From NCBI GenBank assembly GCA_028030915.1, contig GCA_028030915.1_4867.1: 64,000 nt of DNA; one strand, written 5' to 3'. The position numbers and the translations under genes were made by a program. This stretch comes from a phage. Positions 3,791 to 57,237 of this stretch are shown piece after piece (within the stretch, counting starts at the first letter, position 1; every line of letters begins with the position of its first letter). The notes beneath the pieces were generated by a model that was not told where the DNA came from, ran no database searches, and was given only the letters and a program-made list of their open reading frames with translations.

Positions 3791-4519
3791 TTACCTCATA
3801 TACAAATCCTCGAGTGGCTCTGCACGTACCGGATCGACCTGGAGTGCAGAACGGATACCCTGTTTCAGTTCCACATCTGCAATCTTGGCCAACCGGGAAG
3901 TTTTGTTCAATGAACCTGAACGCAGCGGAATAAACTGCACCCGATTCATCAAATCGCTGTCTTTTTTCAGGGTGTAGCGGAAATACGTCCGCGGGTCGCC
4001 AACCTTACGCTGTGTGTGGGCAGCATAACAGTCAGCGGTGATCTGGTCGTTAAAGACCGTAAAGCCGTTCCACGTCTTAGTGTCAGACAATAGCTCAGCG
4101 TCATCTACTGCGGTGTACCAGAAAGGCCGGTTTCCGAAGTCGTAGATGTACGAAGCGATGTTGTAGACTGGCGAGGATAGCACTTGCAGCATTCGGTTGG
4201 GGAACACCACCGTGCCGGGGTCAAAACGGAACTCGTAATACGGCACACCCTGAACGTCAATTTCCTCAAACGCCGACGGGGTAATTTCAATGAACGTCGT
4301 GACGTTCGATACCCCGTAGGTTTTGCGGTCAGTGGAGATAGCGAAAATACCGACGATTTCTACTTGCGAAGAAATTACCGCCAGCTCTTTAGCCACGAAG
4401 CCAACAGGGATGTAAATGTAACATCCCCCTTTGGTGATGGTGGCCGTGCCTTGGTCCACTAAATCTGCATGAATTTTCGTCGCGTCACGACGTGCTGTTT
4501 CAATGGCGCTCACGACCAC
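3791..4519 (-). CDS. hypothetical protein (242 aa)
   Basis: ORF track; long ORF. Confidence 0.6.
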   Translation of the reverse strand: MVVSAIETARRDATKIHADLVDQGTATITKGGCYIYIPVGFVAKELAVISSQVEIVGIFAISTDRKTYGVSNVTTFIEITPSAFEEIDVQGVPYYEFRFDPGTVVFPNRMLQVLSSPVYNIASYIYDFGNRPFWYTAVDDAELLSDTKTWNGFTVFNDQITADCYAAHTQRKVGDPRTYFRYTLKKDSDLMNRVQFIPLRSGSLNKTSRLAKIADVELKQGIRSALQVDPVRAEPLEDLYMR

Positions 4520-4528
4520 CTCTCTTTA

Positions 4529-6004
4529 TTAAACTTTGCTCGGTACAGAAATAACCACACCGCCACAAATCCAATCCAGGACGTAGTTAATCATCCAGTC
4601 GGTTGCCACCTCGTCAGGTTGACGGTTAGCAATCATACCACGATGAATATCCAGCATCAGCTTGGACAGTTCGTATTCGCCGAAGACCTCAGTCGCGGAG
4701 ACTTTGATAACGAACTCAGTGATGTCTGTGGTGTCGGTTGTGAAGAACGAATCGATGAAGCTTGCCGTTGATTTCTTAACGAACTCCGGCGTTGCTACCT
4801 GACCGTCCTGTCCACGCCAGAACAGTTCAGGATCGGTTGCATCGATGGCCACGTTAAACGCTTGTTTCAGTGACTGGCGATTGCGTGTTACCCAACTGCT
4901 GTCGAGCTTAGCACGCTGAATCGCAGAACGGTGTCCCCAGGCAGCGATGTAGTCTTTCTGTTTTTCCAACAGTGAAGCTACACGCGTGGAGACATTGGTG
5001 TCACCTTCGTCCAGCTGGTAGATAGCGCCCAGCAACGCTTCAACGCTACCGCCTTTTTCCAGATAGTCGTCCATCACTTCCTGACAGATATACACTTTCT
5101 TCTCAACGTTGTCGTATCCGAAGACAATGTTACCGGTCTTGATGCGGGTAACGATGTTCTGGGTGTAGGCGTAAACCCAACCGATATAGCTGTAATGCAA
5201 CGGCAGCATCTGTGCTTTCCACTGCCCGCTATTCAGACCAGAGTCTTTCCACGGCATTTCCAGGTAGTAGCCAGAAAGCAGCATAAACAGAATGTTGCGT
5301 TTCAGGTTGTGCGGTGCCTGGTCGCTTACCGGAGAGAGCATGTTCCCTTCGAGCATGTTGCGAACGGCTTCGTTGATATTCCAACCCAGCGCATTCAACA
5401 GTTCTTTAACCAGATCGTCGTATGCTTTGCTGCCGGTTTCTGGCAGTTCGATATCGGCAGGGACGTTGGCTTTAACTGCAGGGTGCGTAGTACCATTGCC
5501 CAGCGGGTTTTCTACCGAATCAATTAATGCCTGTACCACCGGGGAGTTCAACGCCGGGTCCATACCTGCAGGCACAAGTGCCCATTCTTCGCTAACTGCC
5601 TGGTTTTCAATACCCTGGTTGTTTTGGATAACCAGTTGAACAAACGGCTGAATAACGTTACGGGCAAAGTCAAGCATACCCTGACAACGTTGGATAGCCA
5701 TACGTTTCAGTTCGAACAGTGTCGGTTCGTGGTCTTCGACGTTCAGCGTTTCTGGACCCGCTGCAGTATCTGCGATTACAGACGCTTCGCCTGTACCGGC
5801 CTGCGGCGTTTTCAGTGCAGTGATATCCGGCAGAGACTGGAAGAACTCTTCGTCAGTTATCTGCGTATCGAAAACGCTCTGCTGCGTAGTCGCTTTTGTC
5901 AGTAGACCAACAGGACTGTCAACGTCAGCTTCCAAACGAATCTGGTGTTGTTTCGCCAGTTTCATTGCGTTGGTGACAGCATTAAGTGAATATAAGTTGA
6001 TCAT
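4529..6004 (-). CDS. hypothetical protein (491 aa), possibly virion-associated
   Basis: ORF track; long ORF in operon with the large 1401-aa gene; no motif recognised. Confidence 0.65.
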   Translation of the reverse strand: MINLYSLNAVTNAMKLAKQHQIRLEADVDSPVGLLTKATTQQSVFDTQITDEEFFQSLPDITALKTPQAGTGEASVIADTAAGPETLNVEDHEPTLFELKRMAIQRCQGMLDFARNVIQPFVQLVIQNNQGIENQAVSEEWALVPAGMDPALNSPVVQALIDSVENPLGNGTTHPAVKANVPADIELPETGSKAYDDLVKELLNALGWNINEAVRNMLEGNMLSPVSDQAPHNLKRNILFMLLSGYYLEMPWKDSGLNSGQWKAQMLPLHYSYIGWVYAYTQNIVTRIKTGNIVFGYDNVEKKVYICQEVMDDYLEKGGSVEALLGAIYQLDEGDTNVSTRVASLLEKQKDYIAAWGHRSAIQRAKLDSSWVTRNRQSLKQAFNVAIDATDPELFWRGQDGQVATPEFVKKSTASFIDSFFTTDTTDITEFVIKVSATEVFGEYELSKLMLDIHRGMIANRQPDEVATDWMINYVLDWICGGVVISVPSKV

Positions 6005-50239: not shown

Positions 50240-50273
50240 AAATAAAAGGTGGTCAGACCCGAAGGTCTGACCG
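50240..50273 (-). terminator. intrinsic terminator (UUCG loop)
   Basis: aaataaaaggt ggtcagacc cgaa ggtctgacc. Confidence 0.6.
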
Positions 50274-50277
50274 TTAA

Positions 50278-50871
50278 TTACGCTTCGGCCTCAAAGAACG
50301 GCTGGTTCGGTACCACTGCATATTCGAGCACGAAAAGATGTTCTGGGGCATCTTCTGCTCGCCACAGTTTGTGACACGTTGCCAGTTTTTCCAGGATGGT
50401 CAACCAGCTGAGCTGGCAGAAAGCACGATCGCCGAAGAACAGTTTCTGCAGTGCAATCGACACATCCATATACGCCTGTTTGAAGTCGAGTTCTTTATCG
50501 TAACCCGCCGACTGTCGCCACGTCAGCACGAAGCCTGCTTCGGTTTCGTTAATTGCTGGACGTAAACCACAAATCCACATCAGCGCCAGATTAACGTTCC
50601 AGTCGAATTCGATACCTTCGTCTTCGTCATCACCAAACGCCGCGTTTAACGCATCGTAGAAACCGTGGTTCTCTGCGAACCATTCGCCGTACTCAACGTA
50701 TACCGGTGCTTCGACAGCTTCCCCATCGACTTCACCGATAGGACGCTCTACATAGTTCGGGTTGGTTTGAACGTGTTCCGCACCCGCGCGAATTAATTCG
50801 TAGACATCTTTGGCGGTGATTTGTGCGGCTGTTTTAAGACCTGGATACCAGGGGCGTGTTACGAGTGTCAA
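50278..50871 (-). CDS. hypothetical protein (197 aa)
   Basis: ORF track. Confidence 0.55.
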   Translation of the reverse strand: MTLVTRPWYPGLKTAAQITAKDVYELIRAGAEHVQTNPNYVERPIGEVDGEAVEAPVYVEYGEWFAENHGFYDALNAAFGDDEDEGIEFDWNVNLALMWICGLRPAINETEAGFVLTWRQSAGYDKELDFKQAYMDVSIALQKLFFGDRAFCQLSWLTILEKLATCHKLWRAEDAPEHLFVLEYAVVPNQPFFEAEA

Positions 50872-51590
50872 AGCAATGCTCCTTTCATGATAGTGTTATT
50901 TGCCAGTAGTGTACCGGCCGCAGGTGATATTTTGGTGTACAGCGTATCCCAGATTTTCTGAAGTTCAGCGACGCGTTGGTCGTGGTCTTCCTTCGCAAAA
51001 GCAAGCTGACGTGTTTCAGCTTTCGGTGGTGTCATTTTCGCACCGTAGAATGCTGCGTCTTTTCGGTAGCTGGCCATCCAGCGTTTCCCGACCGGTGATT
51101 TCTTTTTAATCATCGCAACAGCAGCACCCTCACCGAAGCGGTAGCCTAAAGCGATTTCGGCTGTGCTCGGCTTGCGTTTGAGTTGTTTTGTCAGATGATC
51201 CTCGATGTGTTTCATGTAAACGGCAGCAAGCTGTACAGCATACTTCGGTTTATTAAGGTCCGCATTCTTTGGGATGTTAAGTTGTTTCCCATACAGACGT
51301 ATCATGGAGCGTTTAGTGCCTGTCGTCATTTGGACAACACTACTAGCACTGCTCGATTTATTCTTACCCACGTTTTTATTAAAACGGGATTCACGATAAA
51401 TGGTGGTCGCGAGCATCCCGGCATGTACGCCTTGTTTTCGAGATGCGGTGACGATGAGAGGTTTAATCTCATTGAACTGGTCCTGGATAAGGACGAATTC
51501 TTTTTGGTGTTTGTTACTGGTGGTCTGGTAAGAAGCGTTGCTGTTGAACGTAGTCATTGCTACCAGAAGAAACAAAATGGTGCGAAACAT
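50868..51590 (-). CDS. secreted lytic transglycosylase-like protein (SLT domain with N-terminal signal peptide)
   Basis: 240 aa; N-terminal MFRTILFLLVAMTTFNSNA is signal-peptide-like; SLT-like motifs TTIYRESRFN...SSASSVVQM and ALGYRFGEGAA. Confidence 0.6.
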   Translation of the reverse strand: MFRTILFLLVAMTTFNSNASYQTTSNKHQKEFVLIQDQFNEIKPLIVTASRKQGVHAGMLATTIYRESRFNKNVGKNKSSSASSVVQMTTGTKRSMIRLYGKQLNIPKNADLNKPKYAVQLAAVYMKHIEDHLTKQLKRKPSTAEIALGYRFGEGAAVAMIKKKSPVGKRWMASYRKDAAFYGAKMTPPKAETRQLAFAKEDHDQRVAELQKIWDTLYTKISPAAGTLLANNTIMKGALL

Positions 51591-51677: not shown

Positions 51678-51697
51678 TGATGATAATATCTATTTGA
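51678..51697 (-). promoter_or_regulatory. conserved intergenic motif A, copy 4
   Basis: tgatgataatatctatttga; overlaps stop of macrodomain gene, about 95 nt upstream of start 51590. Confidence 0.3.
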
Positions 51698-52190
51698 AAC
51701 TATTTGGGATGATTTTCTCTGCTTCCCTCAGCAGGGTGTCCGGTAAATAGAATCGATAAGTCTGCTCCGTGTGCTGTAGTCGTTTCTGTAAGTGTATAAA
51801 GATTTCCAATCGCTCATGGTAACGTAACCAACCGTTAGCCATCCCTAGGGGCGGTATCGCAATCCCTCCTTCTAAGTCTTCCCCTAGTCGCGCCAGCGCA
51901 TCAATGCCGGACGTGACATAGTAAATCTGCGATTTATAGCGAAAATGGGTTTTAGTAGGAAGGAGTATTACCCCTTCCTCAGGATAACAATAGACCTCAC
52001 CGATAACGATTTGCTCTTTACGGCATTTCTGGCGATAGTCATTATAAAGCGATGGGAAGCGTTCTCGGCACGCCAAAGCAATACCCCTTCCCATCGCACC
52101 AACGCAATTAACTGTAACGACCTTGAAGCGCTCAGGCGCGTTAAACAGGTCGTGGGAGATAACGGCCTCGTCGATCAGTTCTAGTGACAT
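51690..52190 (-). CDS. macrodomain protein (DarG/TARG1-like ADP-ribose-binding or hydrolase fold)
   Basis: 166 aa; VVTVNCVGAMGRGIALACRERFP...IGEV...IAIPPLGMANG matches the NC.G.MG.GIAL...FP glycine-rich ADP-ribose-binding loop of DarG/TARG1-type macrodomains (recalled from memory). Confidence 0.65.
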   Translation of the reverse strand: MSLELIDEAVISHDLFNAPERFKVVTVNCVGAMGRGIALACRERFPSLYNDYRQKCRKEQIVIGEVYCYPEEGVILLPTKTHFRYKSQIYYVTSGIDALARLGEDLEGGIAIPPLGMANGWLRYHERLEIFIHLQKRLQHTEQTYRFYLPDTLLREAEKIIPNSFK

Positions 52191-52389
52191 CTATTGCCAT
52201 ACCCCATTGTGAAATAACCGGAGACTGAAGCAACGATTCCAGCTCAGTAAGAACTCTGGCTTTTGCTTCTTCGCGCAACTTACGGACTTCCGGGTCAGGT
52301 TTGCCTGCGCCCAAATATTGGGGTTCTGTTTGTGGGGTAGGGAAGCCACAGAAAGAACCAACCGTTATTCCGATGATTGTTTTTTGCAT
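52141..52389 (-). CDS. small hypothetical protein (82 aa), doubtful
   Basis: ORF track; overlaps macrodomain gene start by 50 nt; hydrophobic N-terminus. Confidence 0.3.
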   Translation of the reverse strand: MQKTIIGITVGSFCGFPTPQTEPQYLGAGKPDPEVRKLREEAKARVLTELESLLQSPVISQWGMAIDVTRTDRRGRYLPRPV

Positions 52390-53112: not shown

Positions 53113-53628
53113 CTATGCTACCGCAGTCCTTAAAGGTTCATCTGCTTCCGCAGGAACCTGCTTCTTAAATTCAAGCCATTGTCCGTCTGTAGAGACGGTC
53201 TTGTCAAAACCGCGAGCGGTAAAGAACGCAATACCAGCTTCCTGGCAAGCGTATATTCCCCCATGCGCACTGGTGAACTGTTCATTCACATCAAGCGCAT
53301 CAAAAATCTGCGTCATCGTTTTACGACGGCGTGCCATTTCAGACACGAACATCGTACGAATCTTCAGAACCCCAGCGATTACGCGATACAAACAGTAACC
53401 AACAGGGGTACCCCCTTCCAGAGCAACACAAGCACGGTTCCCCGCCAACAGTTTCTCCAGAGTGAGGTTCGGAATCTCACCTTTTTCGATATGGAGTATG
53501 GTACGTTGGTGGTTCAGAAATTTATAATGCAGCCCCAACAGCTGTTTATTTTGTGCTTCCGTTAAATCTGAGGATGAGGAAAGAATGACAATTTCGGCCA
53601 TGAGCTGAATTCCTAAGTGAGCTTTCAC
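53113..53628 (-). CDS. hypothetical protein, weakly GNAT-acetyltransferase-like (171 aa)
   Basis: ORF track; VGYCLYRV...MFVSE..RR...T.IFDAL....AC.EAG.AFF is only loosely compatible with a GNAT fold. Confidence 0.45.
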   Translation of the reverse strand: MKAHLGIQLMAEIVILSSSSDLTEAQNKQLLGLHYKFLNHQRTILHIEKGEIPNLTLEKLLAGNRACVALEGGTPVGYCLYRVIAGVLKIRTMFVSEMARRRKTMTQIFDALDVNEQFTSAHGGIYACQEAGIAFFTARGFDKTVSTDGQWLEFKKQVPAEADEPLRTAVA

Positions 53629-54549: not shown

Positions 54550-54737
54550 GTCCGTTCTCCTATATCTCGCCACTCACAACGCGTGTCAAAAAGGCGTTCT
54601 TTAAGAGCAGAGGCTAAATAGACAACTGCAGCGATAACCACCACGGCTGCACAAAAGGAGAGGTACAGTACCATCACAACAAACTGAAGGAACTGAAAAC
54701 CCCACCAAGCCCATAAGCGCCAACCTTTATGATGCAT
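54546..54737 (-). CDS. small membrane protein (63 aa)
   Basis: ORF track; hydrophobic core FVVMVLYLSFCAAVVVIAAVVYLA; overlaps the 3' end of the Rad50-like gene. Confidence 0.4.
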   Translation of the reverse strand: MHHKGWRLWAWWGFQFLQFVVMVLYLSFCAAVVVIAAVVYLASALKERLFDTRCEWRDIGERT

Positions 54738-57237
54738 ATTTGATTATTACCCCTTCGTTATACACCGGTGGAAGCGTTACACCTTCTGGTTCTACGACAC
54801 AGTAGGTGGCTTCGTTAAGTTTAGAATGAACTTCCGCTTCATGCGAAACGACCAGCAATTGAGAAAACTCTCCCGACAACGCCAACGATTTAATGAAGTT
54901 AACTAATCGGTTTTTGTGTTCTTCATCCATGCCTTCAGATGGTTCATCCAATAACAAAGGATAATTTTGTAAACCAAGTGCTTTATACGCCGTTAAACGA
55001 AACATCATGTTGAAAATGATACGCTGTGCTTTTGAACCTTTCTTCACGTCAGGTACCAGTTCTTCATGGTCTTTTAATCGTACCGGGAATGTGTAATCCA
55101 AATCCCCGTCGGTTAAATCGCACGGAATAACCTGCATCGGATATGCCCACACCATTTCGATATACCGATTCATTAAATCCATGATGCGTGTAATCGCAGC
55201 ATAAAAGTAACGACGCAATAATCCTTTTTCGGGGGAGACGGCATTGATAATCAATCTGGCATGGTGATGCTCTTTGAGCAGTTCAGCTTGTTCCTTTTCC
55301 AGTTCCGCTAAACGTGCAATAGCCCCTTCCATTTGACGAAACCGTTCACGAGCTGAAGTATACGCATCGAGCTTCGCTTCGCGTCGGTTTAACAACTCGC
55401 GAACCACGACGTTGTTAACGGAGATGTTCATTTCCGATACCAGATGTTCGTAGCCCTTTTGGAAACGTTCGATTGCTTCTTTGGTTTGTTGCAGTTGGAT
55501 GGTTTCGCGTTCCAGCTCATTGGCTTGTCTGCGGTATTCTATCAGTCGACGGTTAGCCCCGTCTAGTTGTGAACGGATATGTTCAATTTTCTGACTCAGC
55601 GCACCATCAACATTACCTACTGCGGCAACAGCCTCTTGCCATTCCCGTTCCGCTGTTGCAAGCTTCGCTGATTGACGCAGATACATCATGGCCGAATCTA
55701 ACTCTTCGGTAAAGGCACGTGCAATGGCACCATAACGATCCCGCGACGTGGTGAAGATATCCAACTCTTGCAGTTTACGGAAAAACAAACCGACAACGGG
55801 ATGGTTGGAATACGACATGACAATTTCGCGAATCGTACGTAAGCTACGGACGTCCTCTTCAATCTCTTTGCGGTCACGCAAAAGACTATCCATTTCGTCT
55901 TTCAGCTGTTTTTTCCAACCTTCATTATCGTTGATGGCCTTTTCAGTTTCAGGTAACGACTTACGAATCCCAGGACGGAAACGGTGGTTACACTGTGGAC
56001 AATCAACTTCTGCAGTTTCTAAGAAGTGTTGACGGTCGTGGTATAAACCGTGTAGCACATTCTCACAACGTTGCAACTTTTCAGATAGACCCGCAGAGGT
56101 TAAATCCATACCCTGTAAACGCTTCTCTAACGCTCCCAGGCGCTCTGTTGTCTTTAACTGGTCCAGATGCATGGACAACGGTAAATTCCAGTTACAGGCG
56201 TCGTTTAACGCGTTCTGAATGCTATCCACGTCGATGCGGGTACCTTCAAACAGAGCCGGGAACATCCAGTTCTGTTGGAACGTTGCCAGTTCCTGTTTTA
56301 AGCTGTCGATTGTTTGTTTTAGACCGGTATGGTTGCGCATCAGATATGTTTGACGCGACTCCTCATCCAGTAGCTGTGACAACTCTTTATTGTACATGTT
56401 GCATTCAGTTTCAGCAGAGGCAGCTTGCTCACGCCAGGCAACCACACGACTTTGAAACTCGTTAATCAGTTCGTCAGAAGGCAGAACGCCATAACGTTCC
56501 ATAATGAGTTTTACAGCCGGTTGCAACGAAGCAATGCGTTTCCGGATACTGTCAACCGAAACAGCGTTATCTAAACCGGGCCTTGCTTCAATTGTGCGGT
56601 TTAATTCTTGAAGCTCAGCATCGAGTTCTTTCAAACGAACTTCTAAACGTGCACGATCTTCTTCATCGTCAACGACGCGCATTTTTGCTTCGCCGATTTT
56701 TCGTCCGGTGTGTTCGATGGCCCCGCTTAAACTGGAAGCGAGTTTACGCAAACGTCGATAGCAGCCAACAACGTATGTCAGATCAGATTCTGACATTAAC
56801 GTAAACCATTTGCGACGAACTTCGGTAGTGGCGTCAGTTAATAAGGTCTCGCCATTAATTAACTCTTTGATTTCTTTGGTGATTCCGGTTAACTGTTCCA
56901 CCATGGAGTTGTAAACTTTGGCGTTTACCGAGTCCACAATGGGGACGCCTTTGGTGATATTGAAAATACTACAAGACAAAGAAGACCCACGTCGCAGGAC
57001 TTCAAATTTAAGACGGTCGTCCCCGACTAACGCGTAGTTAGTGTAAGAACCGCCTTCGCGGAATTCAGATTTTGCTGGAGCTAAGGGGAGAAAAACAGAC
57101 AGGAGGCTTGTTTTACCGCAACCATTGCCACCGAGGATGATGGTAACGGTTGACTTAAGGGTGAAATCAAACGTTTCGATTTCGTGTAACCCCATGCCGG
57201 TAAATCCTTTCAAAATGATACGTTCGACCTTGAGCAT
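54727..57237 (-). CDS. Rad50/SbcC-like ATPase (836 aa)
   Basis: Walker A ILGGNGCGKTSLL near N-terminus; long central coiled-coil-like region with CPQC zinc-hook-like motif; Walker B/D-loop LLLDEPSEGMDEE and H-loop VVSHE near C-terminus. Confidence 0.8.
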   Translation of the reverse strand: MLKVERIILKGFTGMGLHEIETFDFTLKSTVTIILGGNGCGKTSLLSVFLPLAPAKSEFREGGSYTNYALVGDDRLKFEVLRRGSSLSCSIFNITKGVPIVDSVNAKVYNSMVEQLTGITKEIKELINGETLLTDATTEVRRKWFTLMSESDLTYVVGCYRRLRKLASSLSGAIEHTGRKIGEAKMRVVDDEEDRARLEVRLKELDAELQELNRTIEARPGLDNAVSVDSIRKRIASLQPAVKLIMERYGVLPSDELINEFQSRVVAWREQAASAETECNMYNKELSQLLDEESRQTYLMRNHTGLKQTIDSLKQELATFQQNWMFPALFEGTRIDVDSIQNALNDACNWNLPLSMHLDQLKTTERLGALEKRLQGMDLTSAGLSEKLQRCENVLHGLYHDRQHFLETAEVDCPQCNHRFRPGIRKSLPETEKAINDNEGWKKQLKDEMDSLLRDRKEIEEDVRSLRTIREIVMSYSNHPVVGLFFRKLQELDIFTTSRDRYGAIARAFTEELDSAMMYLRQSAKLATAEREWQEAVAAVGNVDGALSQKIEHIRSQLDGANRRLIEYRRQANELERETIQLQQTKEAIERFQKGYEHLVSEMNISVNNVVVRELLNRREAKLDAYTSARERFRQMEGAIARLAELEKEQAELLKEHHHARLIINAVSPEKGLLRRYFYAAITRIMDLMNRYIEMVWAYPMQVIPCDLTDGDLDYTFPVRLKDHEELVPDVKKGSKAQRIIFNMMFRLTAYKALGLQNYPLLLDEPSEGMDEEHKNRLVNFIKSLALSGEFSQLLVVSHEAEVHSKLNEATYCVVEPEGVTLPPVYNEGVIIKYAS

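What the first reader, a model, noticed from the sequence alone, without database searches (positions are those of the whole stretch)
51690..52190. DarG/TARG1-type macrodomain protein, a candidate ADP-ribosylation-reversing (anti-defence) factor
The 166-aa protein has the diagnostic N-terminal loop of DarG/TARG1-like macrodomains (VNCVGAMGRGIALACRERFP) and a second Gly-rich loop (IAIPPLGMANG). In bacteria this fold in DarG removes ADP-ribose from DNA modified by the DarT toxin, and DarTG acts as a phage-defence system. A phage-encoded stand-alone copy is a plausible counter-defence enzyme or a regulator of ADP-ribosylation during infection. The function is inferred from motif similarity only.
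Basis: partly seen in the sequence, partly recalled or inferred. Interest (0 to 1): 0.65.

Follow-up and report, generated by a model that had tools for sequence, protein, structure and literature searches.

The report
Phage anti-DarT macrodomain (AdfM orthologue)
This gene of an SPN3US-type jumbo Salmonella phage encodes a stand-alone DarG-like macrodomain enzyme that most likely strips ADP-ribose off phage DNA to defeat the bacterial DarTG2 defence; the reading is correct, but the family was published in 2026 as AdfM, so it is not new.

Summary
A 166-aa ORF lies at 51690..52190 on the minus strand and carries both quoted motifs. It is a DarG-type macrodomain by several independent tests:
- PADLOC DarG scores 4e-32 and the NCBIfam DarG model 1e-30, both over the macrodomain part only.
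- The best solved-structure matches are the DarG macrodomains 5M3I and 5M31.
- A confident AlphaFold model (pLDDT 93) matches 5M3E, 5M31 and 5M3I first and TARG1 next.
- The catalytic residues N28 and K80 (T. aquaticus DarG N22 and K80) are invariant among homologues.

The window comes from an SPN3US-group, nucleus-forming jumbo phage, and the gene corresponds to SPN3US_0196. It is the syntenic orthologue (70.5% identity over the full length) of Erwinia phage Asesino gp217, and it is 35% identical (E 3e-25) to PhiKZ gp104. Morgan et al. (Cell Rep 2026, PMC13309987) named both proteins AdfM, "anti-DarT factor macro". They showed that PhiKZ AdfM removes DarT2-made ADP-ribose from DNA, protects the phage from DarTG2 and is imported into the phage nucleus.

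Activity has not been shown directly for the SPN3US/Asesino clade, which carries a few clade-specific changes near the ADP-ribose pocket. Interest is low.

The parts
51690..52190 (-). adfM-type gene: a stand-alone DarG-like macrodomain of 166 aa (orthologue of SPN3US_0196 / ACQ60_gp070 and of Asesino gp217)
   Evidence: ORF; PADLOC DarG 4.3e-32 and NCBIfam DarG 1e-30; AF2 pLDDT 93 with top fold hits 5M3E/5M31/5M3I; 70.5% identity to Asesino gp217; 35% identity, E 3e-25, to PhiKZ AdfM
52077..52115 (-). First ADP-ribose-binding loop, TVNCVGAMGRGIA (residues 26-38), including N28, the equivalent of T. aquaticus DarG N22 and PhiKZ AdfM N23
   Evidence: T26, N28, G31, M33, G34, G36 and A38 are invariant in 57 homologues and in the alignment with the DarG macrodomains and PhiKZ AdfM. 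DarG N22A and AdfM N23A reduce activity (PMC5179494; PMC13309987)
51951..51959 (-). P78-T79-K80: K80 is the predicted catalytic lysine (T. aquaticus DarG K80, TARG1 catalytic Lys, PhiKZ AdfM K78)
   Evidence: T79 and K80 are invariant. K80A inactivates TaqDarG and abolishes rescue from DarT (PMC5179494)
51942..51947 (-). H82-F83: the aromatic residue at the position of DarG W83, proposed to stack on the modified thymine; Phe instead of Trp in the SPN3US/Asesino clade
   Evidence: Alignment; the role of W83 is proposed in PMC5179494
51825..51854 (-). Second (diphosphate-binding) loop, PPLGMANGWL (residues 113-122). G116, N119 and G120 are equivalent to DarG G117, N120 and G121. Clade-specific changes: A118 (DarG G119; also Ala in PhiKZ AdfM) and W121 (DarG G122)
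   Evidence: P113, L115, G116 and G120 are invariant; ADP-ribose contacts are listed in PMC5179494

Best explanation
The gene encodes an AdfM-type 'orphan antitoxin': a single-domain macrodomain ADP-ribosylglycohydrolase derived from the enzymatic half of the bacterial DarG2 antitoxin. When an SPN3US-type jumbo phage infects a host that carries a DarTG2 system, the DarT2 toxin uses NAD+ to attach ADP-ribose to thymine in single-stranded phage DNA. This impairs replication and blocks packaging. The phage macrodomain binds the ADP-ribose moiety through its two glycine-rich loops and cleaves the thymine-ribose bond using K80, helped by N28, which restores unmodified DNA. It lacks DarG2's C-terminal DarT-binding domain, so it acts only by erasing the modification and not by sequestering the toxin. 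By analogy with its Asesino orthologue, it is probably imported into the phage nucleus, where the phage DNA resides. What is shown here: the DarG-type sequence and fold, the conserved catalytic residues, the single-domain architecture, and orthology and synteny with a named AdfM. What is shown elsewhere for homologues: enzymatic removal of DarT2 ADP-ribose, protection from DarTG2 and nuclear localisation. What is inferred for this protein: activity, substrate, localisation and the in vivo role.
For: DarG-specific models match strongly but only over the macrodomain. PADLOC DarG scores 4.3e-32 over profile positions 7-147 of 329. NCBIfam DarG equivalog NF048014 scores 107 bits over positions 7-150 of 338. 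The best PDB sequence hits are the DarG macrodomains 5M3I (1.9e-20) and 5M31/5M3E (8.7e-19), followed by the DarTG fusion 7OMU. The AF2 model has pLDDT 93 and pTM 0.89. Foldseek ranks 5M3E, 5M31 and 5M3I first (E 2e-13 to 9e-12; TM 0.74-0.76 by query and 0.80-0.83 by target), then 7OMU, then TARG1. N28 and K80 (= Taq N22 and K80), T26, T79, G116 and G120 are invariant in 57 homologues and align with DarG and PhiKZ AdfM. The protein is 35% identical (E 3e-25) to PhiKZ gp104 AdfM, and the reciprocal tblastn finds this gene as the only match in SPN3US-group genomes. It is 70.5% identical over 166/166 aa to Asesino gp217 = YP_009290835.1, with the same gene order (SMC ... GNAT ... macro, SLT transglycosylase ... 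virion protein). Morgan et al. 2026 (PMC13309987) report that PhiKZ AdfM removes DarT2 ADP-ribose from DNA, that N23A reduces this activity, that AdfM mutants lose 3-6 logs of titre on DarTG2 hosts, and that Asesino, PhiKZ and PhiPA3 AdfM localise to the phage nucleus. The macrodomain alone suffices as an antitoxin for TaqDarT (PMC5179494). SPN3US is nucleus-forming and has a chimallin homologue (PMC9365700; PMC13282480). All 62 nearest cluster representatives match the DarG model.
Against: No experiment exists for this protein. For its clade (Asesino gp217) only nuclear localisation was shown, not hydrolase or anti-DarT2 activity. The clade differs from characterised DarG at pocket-adjacent positions: W83->F, Q34->A, G122->W, and G119->A (this last also in the active PhiKZ enzyme). 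The protein is no closer to PhiKZ AdfM (82 bits) than to many cellular DarG-like proteins (92-98 bits), so 'AdfM' is a functional label rather than a tight clade. I did not show that DarTG2 is common in Salmonella; among plasmids, DarG-like genes are mostly in Bacillus, with only 2 Escherichia records. Neither nuclear import nor the presence of a PicA homologue was tested for this phage.
Confidence: 0.8

Rival explanations
1. It is an ADP-ribose-1''-phosphate phosphatase or O-acetyl-ADP-ribose deacetylase (the 'Appr-1-p processing' or 'phosphatase' function written in many phage annotations). In that case it would process small-molecule ADP-ribose derivatives from RNA repair or sirtuin reactions rather than modified DNA.
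For: PHROG 335 is labelled 'phosphatase', and many GenBank records call the orthologues 'putative Appr-1-p processing protein'. Poa1p (ADP-ribose 1''-phosphate phosphatase) appears among the weak PDB hits, at phmmer E 0.05-0.13 and Foldseek E about 1e-6 with TM 0.63.
Against: The DarG matches are 12 or more orders of magnitude better by sequence, and clearly better by fold, than the Poa1p/MacroD-type matches. At E<=1, the only NCBIfam and PADLOC hits are to DarG. The DarG/TARG1-type catalytic lysine is invariant. No Tpt1/KptA, RNA ligase or sirtuin is annotated in SPN3US. The 'phosphatase' label is an inherited generic macrodomain name, not a tested function.
Confidence: 0.04
2. It is an active DarG/TARG1-like hydrolase whose physiological substrate is not DarT2-modified DNA. 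The substrate could be ADP-ribosylated RNA (for example uracil-linked), ADP-ribosylated protein, or the product of a different host ADP-ribosyltransferase defence or of a phage-encoded transferase.
For: TARG1 and TaqDarG also remove uracil-linked ADP-ribose from RNA in vitro (PMC13036486), and TARG1 acts on proteins (PMC5179494). The SPN3US/Asesino clade has its own substitutions near the pocket (F83, A40, W121). The clade is as distant from PhiKZ AdfM as from cellular DarG. About 56% of jumbo phages carry macrodomains of mostly untested specificity (PMC9503650).
Against: Every characterised close relative (Taq, Mtb and EPEC DarG; PhiKZ and PhiPA3 AdfM) acts on thymine-ADP-ribose in DNA. TaqDarG is less efficient on uracil-RNA than on thymine-DNA. 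The Asesino orthologue goes to the nucleus, where the DNA is. No phage ADP-ribosyltransferase is annotated, although most genes are 'hypothetical', so this is weak evidence.
Confidence: 0.12
3. It is a catalytically inactive ADP-ribose-binding 'reader' macrodomain, or a protein whose role (as proposed for E. coli YmdB) is to regulate a nuclease such as RNase III.
For: One PDB depositor's name for the M. tuberculosis DarG macrodomain is 'RNase III inhibitor', and some database names read 'regulator of RNase III'. Some macrodomains are readers only (PMC9503650).
Against: All residues required for catalysis in DarG are present and invariant. The 'RNase III inhibitor' name is a transferred YmdB label attached to a structure published as DarG (PMC5179494). 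No YmdB-type family matched at E<=1.
Confidence: 0.02

Closest known systems
AdfM (anti-DarT factor macro) of chimalliviruses: PhiKZ gp104, PhiPA3 gp108, Goslar gp83, Asesino gp217 (Morgan et al., Cell Rep 2026, PMC13309987)
   Same: Both are stand-alone DarG2-like macrodomains of about 160 aa, encoded by nucleus-forming jumbo phages. The window protein is 70.5% identical to and syntenic with Asesino gp217, and 35% identical (E 3e-25) to PhiKZ gp104 with a reciprocal unique hit. The catalytic Asn and Lys are conserved.
   Different: This protein has not been tested. The SPN3US/Asesino clade carries F83, A40 and W121 where DarG has W83, Q34 and G122. It is no closer to PhiKZ AdfM than to cellular DarG macrodomains, so the two phage lineages may have captured the domain separately.
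DarG2 antitoxin of the DarTG2 toxin-antitoxin / phage-defence system (T. aquaticus, M. tuberculosis, EPEC; PDB 5M31, 5M3E, 5M3I)
   Same: The two share the macrodomain subfamily by HMM, sequence and fold, the catalytic residues N22 and K80, and the ADP-ribose-contacting residues T20, T79, G117, N120 and G121.
   Different: The window protein lacks the C-terminal DarT-binding domain: only about 145 of the roughly 330 model positions match, and the score of 107 bits is below the 250-bit equivalog cut-off. No darT gene is adjacent. It is encoded by a lytic phage, so it is an orphan antitoxin used for counter-defence and not an antitoxin in an operon.
TARG1 (C6orf130), human terminal ADP-ribose glycohydrolase
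   Same: It is the next-best fold match after DarG (Foldseek E 1.7e-7, TM 0.69/0.77). It shares the catalytic lysine position and also removes thymine-linked ADP-ribose.
   Different: Sequence identity is only about 16%. TARG1 is a eukaryotic enzyme that also acts on protein glutamate-ADPr.
AdfN (phage NADAR orphan antitoxin against DarTG1; Johannesman et al. 2025, PMC11825919)
   Same: It follows the same strategy: a phage carries the enzymatic module of the cognate antitoxin to erase DarT-made DNA ADP-ribosylation.
   Different: It has an unrelated fold (NADAR) and is specific for guanine-ADPr made by DarT1; it does not counter DarTG2.

Membership tests
Macrodomain fold | Three-layer alpha/beta/alpha fold with a six-stranded mixed sheet and an ADP-ribose cleft formed by Gly-rich loops | tested here: met
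   The AF2 model has pLDDT 93 and pTM 0.89, with six strands and five long helices. 185 PDB macrodomain matches reach E<=0.001. Pfam Macro scores 21.7 bits against a cut-off of 22, so it is borderline by the generic model only.
DarG-type (TARG1-like) macrodomain subfamily | Best match to DarG-specific profiles and structures rather than to MacroD, Poa1p or viral macrodomains | tested here: met
   PADLOC DarG 4.3e-32 and NCBIfam DarG 1e-30 are the only hits at E<=1. 5M3I, 5M31 and 5M3E come first by sequence and by fold. All 62 nearest representatives match the DarG model.
DarG-type (TARG1-like) macrodomain subfamily | Catalytic lysine (Taq K80 / TARG1 K84) and the substrate-positioning Asn (Taq N22) | tested here: met
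   K80 and N28 align with Taq K80 and N22 and are invariant in 57 homologues. The functional importance of these residues comes from PMC5179494 and PMC13309987.
DarG2 antitoxin (full-length, NCBIfam NF048014 equivalog) | C-terminal DarT-binding domain; score at or above the 250-bit equivalog cut-off | tested here: not met
   The protein has 166 aa. Only profile positions 7-150 of 338 are matched, at 107 bits against a cut-off of 250; the PADLOC match covers positions 7-147 of 329.
DarG2 antitoxin (full-length, NCBIfam NF048014 equivalog) | Encoded in an operon next to a darT toxin gene | tested here: not met
   The neighbours are small hypothetical genes, a GNAT, an SLT transglycosylase and an SMC-like ATPase. 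No DarT or ART domain was found.
AdfM (anti-DarT factor macro) | Phage-encoded stand-alone DarG2-like macrodomain homologous to PhiKZ gp104 | tested here: met
   BLASTP against gp104 gives 35% identity, E 3e-25. The reciprocal tblastn finds a single place per SPN3US-group genome. The protein is 70.5% identical to, and syntenic with, the named AdfM Asesino gp217 = YP_009290835.1.
AdfM (anti-DarT factor macro) | Encoded by a nucleus-forming (chimallin-encoding) phage | tested here: met
   The window is 97.6-99.3% identical in nucleotide sequence to SPN3US-group genomes. SPN3US has a chimallin homologue, gp244 (PMC9365700), which is RefSeq ACQ60_gp244, 617 aa, and SPN3US is listed among the phages with demonstrated nucleus formation (PMC13282480). 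The chimallin gene itself lies outside this window.
AdfM (anti-DarT factor macro) | Removes DarT2-made ADP-ribose from ssDNA and protects the phage from DarTG2 | not testable with these tools
   This needs enzymology and phage genetics. It has been shown for PhiKZ gp104 and, genetically, for PhiPA3 gp108, but not for the SPN3US/Asesino clade.
AdfM (anti-DarT factor macro) | Imported into the phage nucleus (PicA-dependent) | not testable with these tools
   It has been shown by GFP fusion for the 70%-identical Asesino orthologue. I did not look for a PicA homologue in SPN3US.

The most novel reading that the evidence does not exclude
The SPN3US/Asesino-type macrodomain may be a separate capture of a DarG-family macrodomain, with its own pocket substitutions (F83 for W83, A40 for Q34, W121 for G122). 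Its real substrate may then differ from DarT2's thymine-ADP-ribose. Candidates are RNA-linked or protein-linked ADP-ribose, or the product of an as yet undescribed enterobacterial ADP-ribosyltransferase defence. Under this reading the 'AdfM' label would hide two functionally distinct phage enzymes.
Probability: 0.1. Interest if true: 0.45.

Novelty: already known. Interest (0 to 1): 0.15.

Why it matters
The gene illustrates a general rule of phage-host conflict: phages steal the enzymatic half of a toxin-antitoxin defence system and use it as an 'orphan antitoxin'. It also shows that even phages which hide their DNA inside a protein nucleus still need an eraser for DNA ADP-ribosylation. For SPN3US-type phages, which are candidate biocontrol or therapy phages against Salmonella and E. 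coli, the gene predicts resistance to DarTG2-carrying hosts. Because the family (AdfM) and its mechanism were published in 2026, including a 70%-identical orthologue, this instance mainly allows a better annotation: 'AdfM-like anti-DarT2 ADP-ribosylglycohydrolase' in place of 'hypothetical protein', 'phosphatase' or 'protein-ADP-ribosylation protein'.

Tried and rejected
(1) GNAT-macro linkage. A GNAT acetyltransferase lies about 0.9 kb upstream (53113..53628), also in Asesino, and in Serratia phage Totoro a GNAT gene directly overlaps the macro gene. The two GNATs are not detectably homologous (BLASTP E 2.9), and SPN3US has at least five GNATs. I rejected this as a conserved functional pair.

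(2) Chimallin in the window. I first assumed that 'gp244' meant SPN3US_0243/0244 (window 3791..6004) and scanned those ORFs, with no Pfam hit. The paper's gp244 is RefSeq ACQ60_gp244, at 15.8-17.6 kb of SPN3US and outside the window.

(3) A phage-encoded ADP-ribosyltransferase, sirtuin, Tpt1 or RNA ligase as a partner. None is annotated in the whole SPN3US RefSeq record. This is weak evidence, because most genes are 'hypothetical'.

(4) Host DarTG prevalence. A tblastn of a full-length DarG-like protein against plasmids gave mostly Bacillus records and only 2 Escherichia records, which is uninformative. LeRoux et al. 2022 (PMC9250638) is not held in the library, and PMC9836087 mentions DarTG only in passing.

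(5) The supplement of Morgan et al. (Figure S1, the list of chimallivirus AdfM proteins) is not held. I could not confirm that SPN3US is explicitly listed there.

(6) Sigma-70 promoter scan. The number of hits was no more than chance (4 found against 4.0 expected), and these phages use their own RNA polymerases, so the scan is uninformative.

(7) A literature search for SPN3US gp196 found nothing specific.

Full report
**1. The observation**

The window has a 166-aa ORF on the minus strand at 51690..52190, with an ATG start. VNCVGAMGRGIALACRERFP is residues 27-46 (nt 52053-52112), and IAIPPLGMANG is residues 110-120 (nt 51831-51863). The gene's G+C content (47.5%) matches that of the window (48.1%).

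**2. The genome**

The 4 kb around the gene is 99.3% identical to the Salmonella phages SPFM2-22. It is 97.6% identical to Salmonella phage SPN3US (genus Seoulvirus, about 240 kb). The gene corresponds to SPN3US_0196 (GenBank: 'hypothetical protein') and to ACQ60_gp070 (RefSeq: 'macro domain-containing protein'). Other records call it 'phosphatase', 'protein-ADP-ribosylation protein' or 'Appr-1-p processing protein'.

SPN3US carries a diverged chimallin homologue, gp244 (PMC9365700). This is RefSeq ACQ60_gp244, 617 aa, and it lies outside this window. A 2026 review lists SPN3US among the phages for which nucleus formation has been demonstrated (PMC13282480).

**3. The protein**

- **Family models.** The generic Pfam Macro model scores 21.7 bits, just under its cut-off of 22. 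DarG-specific models score strongly: PADLOC DarG 4.3e-32 over profile positions 7-147 of 329, and NCBIfam DarG equivalog NF048014 at 1e-30, 107 bits, over positions 7-150 of 338. These are the only hits at E<=1 in those two libraries. They cover only the macrodomain half of DarG, and the score is below the 250-bit equivalog cut-off. The protein is therefore a macrodomain-only relative that lacks DarG2's DarT-binding domain.
- **Solved structures by sequence.** The best matches are 5M3I (M. tuberculosis DarG macrodomain, 1.9e-20), 5M31/5M3E (T. aquaticus DarG macrodomain, 8.7e-19) and 7OMU (Thermosipho DarTG fusion, 2e-10). Poa1p, an ADP-ribose-1''-phosphate phosphatase, reaches only E 0.05. 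PMC5179494 confirms which proteins the three DarG entries represent.
- **Predicted structure.** An AlphaFold2 model built on 57 homologues is confident (pLDDT 93, pTM 0.89). Foldseek against the PDB ranks 5M3E, 5M31 and 5M3I first, with E 2e-13 to 9e-12 and TM 0.74-0.76 by query and 0.80-0.83 by target. 7OMU comes next, then human TARG1 (E 1.7e-7), then viral and other macrodomains.

**4. Active site**

I used the HMMER alignment (PDB chain index minus 10 gives the UniProt number) and a MAFFT alignment with Asesino gp217, PhiKZ AdfM, the Taq and Mtb DarG macrodomains and two full-length DarG-like proteins. The correspondence to T. aquaticus DarG is:

| T. aquaticus DarG | Window protein |
|---|---|
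| T20 | T26 |
| N22 | N28 |
| K29 | R35 |
| V31 | I37 |
| Q34 | A40 |
| T79 | T79 |
| K80 | K80 |
| H82 | H82 |
| W83 | F83 |
| G117 | G116 |
| G119 | A118 |
| N120 | N119 |
| G121 | G120 |
| G122 | W121 |

T26, N28, G31, M33, G34, G36, A38, Y52, T79, K80, G116 and G120 are invariant in 57 homologues. In TaqDarG, K80A abolishes activity and abolishes rescue from DarT, and N22A is the next most damaging mutation. The macrodomain alone suffices as an antitoxin (PMC5179494). PhiKZ AdfM also has Ala at the G119 position and is active. The catalytic machinery is therefore intact. F83, A40 and W121 are changes specific to this clade and of unknown consequence.

**5. Relation to the published family**

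Morgan et al. (Cell Rep 2026, PMC13309987) describe AdfM, 'anti-DarT factor macro'. They report the following.
- PhiKZ gp104 is a DarG2-like macrodomain that removes DarT2-made ADP-ribose from DNA, and N23A reduces this activity.
- It rescues E. coli from DarT2 toxicity.
- PhiKZ and PhiPA3 AdfM mutants lose 3-6 logs of titre on DarTG2-expressing hosts.
- DarT2 blocks DNA replication and packaging in those mutants.
- GFP-tagged AdfM from PhiKZ, PhiPA3 and Erwinia phage Asesino localises to the phage nucleus.
- Homologues occur in about half of chimalliviruses.

The window protein relates to these proteins as follows.
- I translated the gp104 sequence from the paper's methods. It aligns with the window protein at 35% identity, E 3e-25.
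- The reciprocal tblastn with gp104 finds this gene as the single match in SPN3US-group genomes.
- The window protein is 70.5% identical over all 166 residues to Asesino gp217 (YP_009290835.1), the accession named as AdfM in the paper's Figure 1 legend.
- The gene order is the same in both phages: SMC-like ATPase ... GNAT ... small genes, macro, SLT transglycosylase ... virion structural protein.

The window gene is therefore the positional orthologue of a named AdfM.

**6. Wider family**

A full HMMER scan of 1.84 billion cluster representatives finds 4,237 relatives at E<=1e-3 and 1,066 at E<=1e-10. I examined the 62 nearest that lie outside the protein's own clade.
- By length, 16 have 180 aa or fewer, 11 have 197-276 aa and 35 have 286 aa or more.
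- All 62 match the DarG equivalog model. The best scores 1e-119, and one carries a DarT domain.

In a local BLASTP, the window protein scores 92-98 bits against many of these cellular DarG-like proteins but only 82 bits against PhiKZ AdfM. PhiKZ AdfM likewise scores higher (110-118 bits) against cellular proteins than against the window protein. 'AdfM' is therefore a functional and architectural label within the DarG-macrodomain radiation, not a tight sequence clade. The SPN3US/Asesino-type and PhiKZ-type genes could be separate captures. This does not weaken the DarG-type assignment. It does mean that enzymatic activity for this clade is inferred from relatives at 30-40% identity, plus localisation data for the 70% orthologue.

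**7. Local context**

The gene sits in a long run of minus-strand genes. Going from upstream to downstream these are:
- an SMC-like ATPase (54727..57237);
- a GNAT (53113..53628);
- three small ORFs;
- the macro gene;
- an SLT transglycosylase (50868..51590);
- a 197-aa ORF (50278..50871).

The only strong minus-strand terminator-like hairpin follows at 50272-50251. No darT-like or ART gene is adjacent. None is annotated anywhere in SPN3US.

**8. Rivals**

- **Appr-1''-p phosphatase or OAADPr deacetylase** (the inherited annotation). This is disfavoured by the large gap between the DarG matches and the Poa1p/MacroD-type matches, by the invariant TARG1/DarG-type lysine, and by the absence of RNA-repair partner genes.
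- **A different ADP-ribosylated substrate** (RNA, protein or another defence). This cannot be excluded. TaqDarG and TARG1 also act on uracil-ADPr RNA in vitro, TaqDarG less efficiently than TARG1 and SCO6735 (PMC13036486), and this clade has its own pocket substitutions. However, all characterised close relatives act on thymine-ADPr in DNA.
- **A non-catalytic reader or an RNase III regulator.** This is contradicted by the intact catalytic residues.

**9. Verdict**

HMM, structural, residue-level and orthology evidence now back them, together with published experiments on homologues. The function was published in April 2026, and RefSeq already labels the gene a macrodomain protein. This is therefore an already known kind of anti-defence gene, untested in this particular clade. 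Interest is low. The residual novelty lies only in possible substrate differences or in an independent origin of the SPN3US/Asesino clade.

Noticed in passing
window 52141..52389 (-); Asesino locus L004 4751..5050 (+): An 82-aa ORF (= SPN3US_0195) ends 50 nt inside the macro gene. Asesino has an unannotated 99-aa ORF in the same arrangement, with a shared motif CG[FY]P..Q.TEP[QE]Y. It is therefore a conserved small gene with a conserved 50-nt out-of-frame overlap with the adfM start, which may mean translational coupling. Its function is unknown and it has no Pfam hit.
   Followed up: partly
window 50251..50272 (-): A strong intrinsic-terminator-like hairpin (9-bp stem GGTCAGACC-TTCG-GGTCTGACC followed by a T-run) lies directly after the 197-aa ORF 50278..50871. 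It is the only convincing minus-strand terminator between 50200 and 54000, so the macro gene, the SLT transglycosylase and the 197-aa ORF are probably co-transcribed.
   Followed up: no
phage records LR535904/LR535905 and the SPFM1, 6, 7, 8, 12, 14, 15, 20 proteins (P0037, P0038, P0042, P0043, P0047, P0050, P0052): Several SPFM phage records carry this region broken into 40 or more BLAST pieces and encode frameshifted or truncated copies of the macro protein (111-152 aa). This looks like indel-rich sequencing or assembly error rather than biology.
   Followed up: partly
window 53113..53628 (-); Serratia phage Totoro locus L010 2032..2941: A GNAT acetyltransferase lies about 0.9 kb upstream of the macro gene here and in Asesino. 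In Serratia phage Totoro (Moabitevirus) a GNAT gene directly overlaps the macro gene. The two GNATs are not detectably homologous (E 2.9), so the adjacency is probably coincidental.
   Followed up: yes
phage collection hits H156-H162, H64-H72 (Escherichia phages of about 54-79 kb, e.g. vB_EcoP_SU10, EcoN5, DE15): DarG/AdfM-like stand-alone macrodomains also occur in much smaller Escherichia phages. They are up to 42% identical to PhiKZ AdfM, which is closer than the SPN3US-type protein is. I did not check whether these phages lack a nucleus; if they do, the anti-DarT2 macrodomain strategy is probably not restricted to chimalliviruses.
   Followed up: no
window 54727..57237 (-): An 836-aa SMC/RecF/RecN-like ATPase (weak Pfam SMC_N and AAA_15 hits plus a coiled-coil region) is conserved upstream in both SPN3US and Asesino. 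It is a possible DNA repair or recombination factor of the kind chimalliviruses import into the nucleus.
   Followed up: no
SPN3US RefSeq NC_027402.1 140024..142139 (outside the window): Two adjacent radical SAM domain proteins (ACQ60_gp102 and gp103) are annotated in SPN3US. I saw them while scanning the genome for ADP-ribosyltransferases and did not examine them.
   Followed up: no
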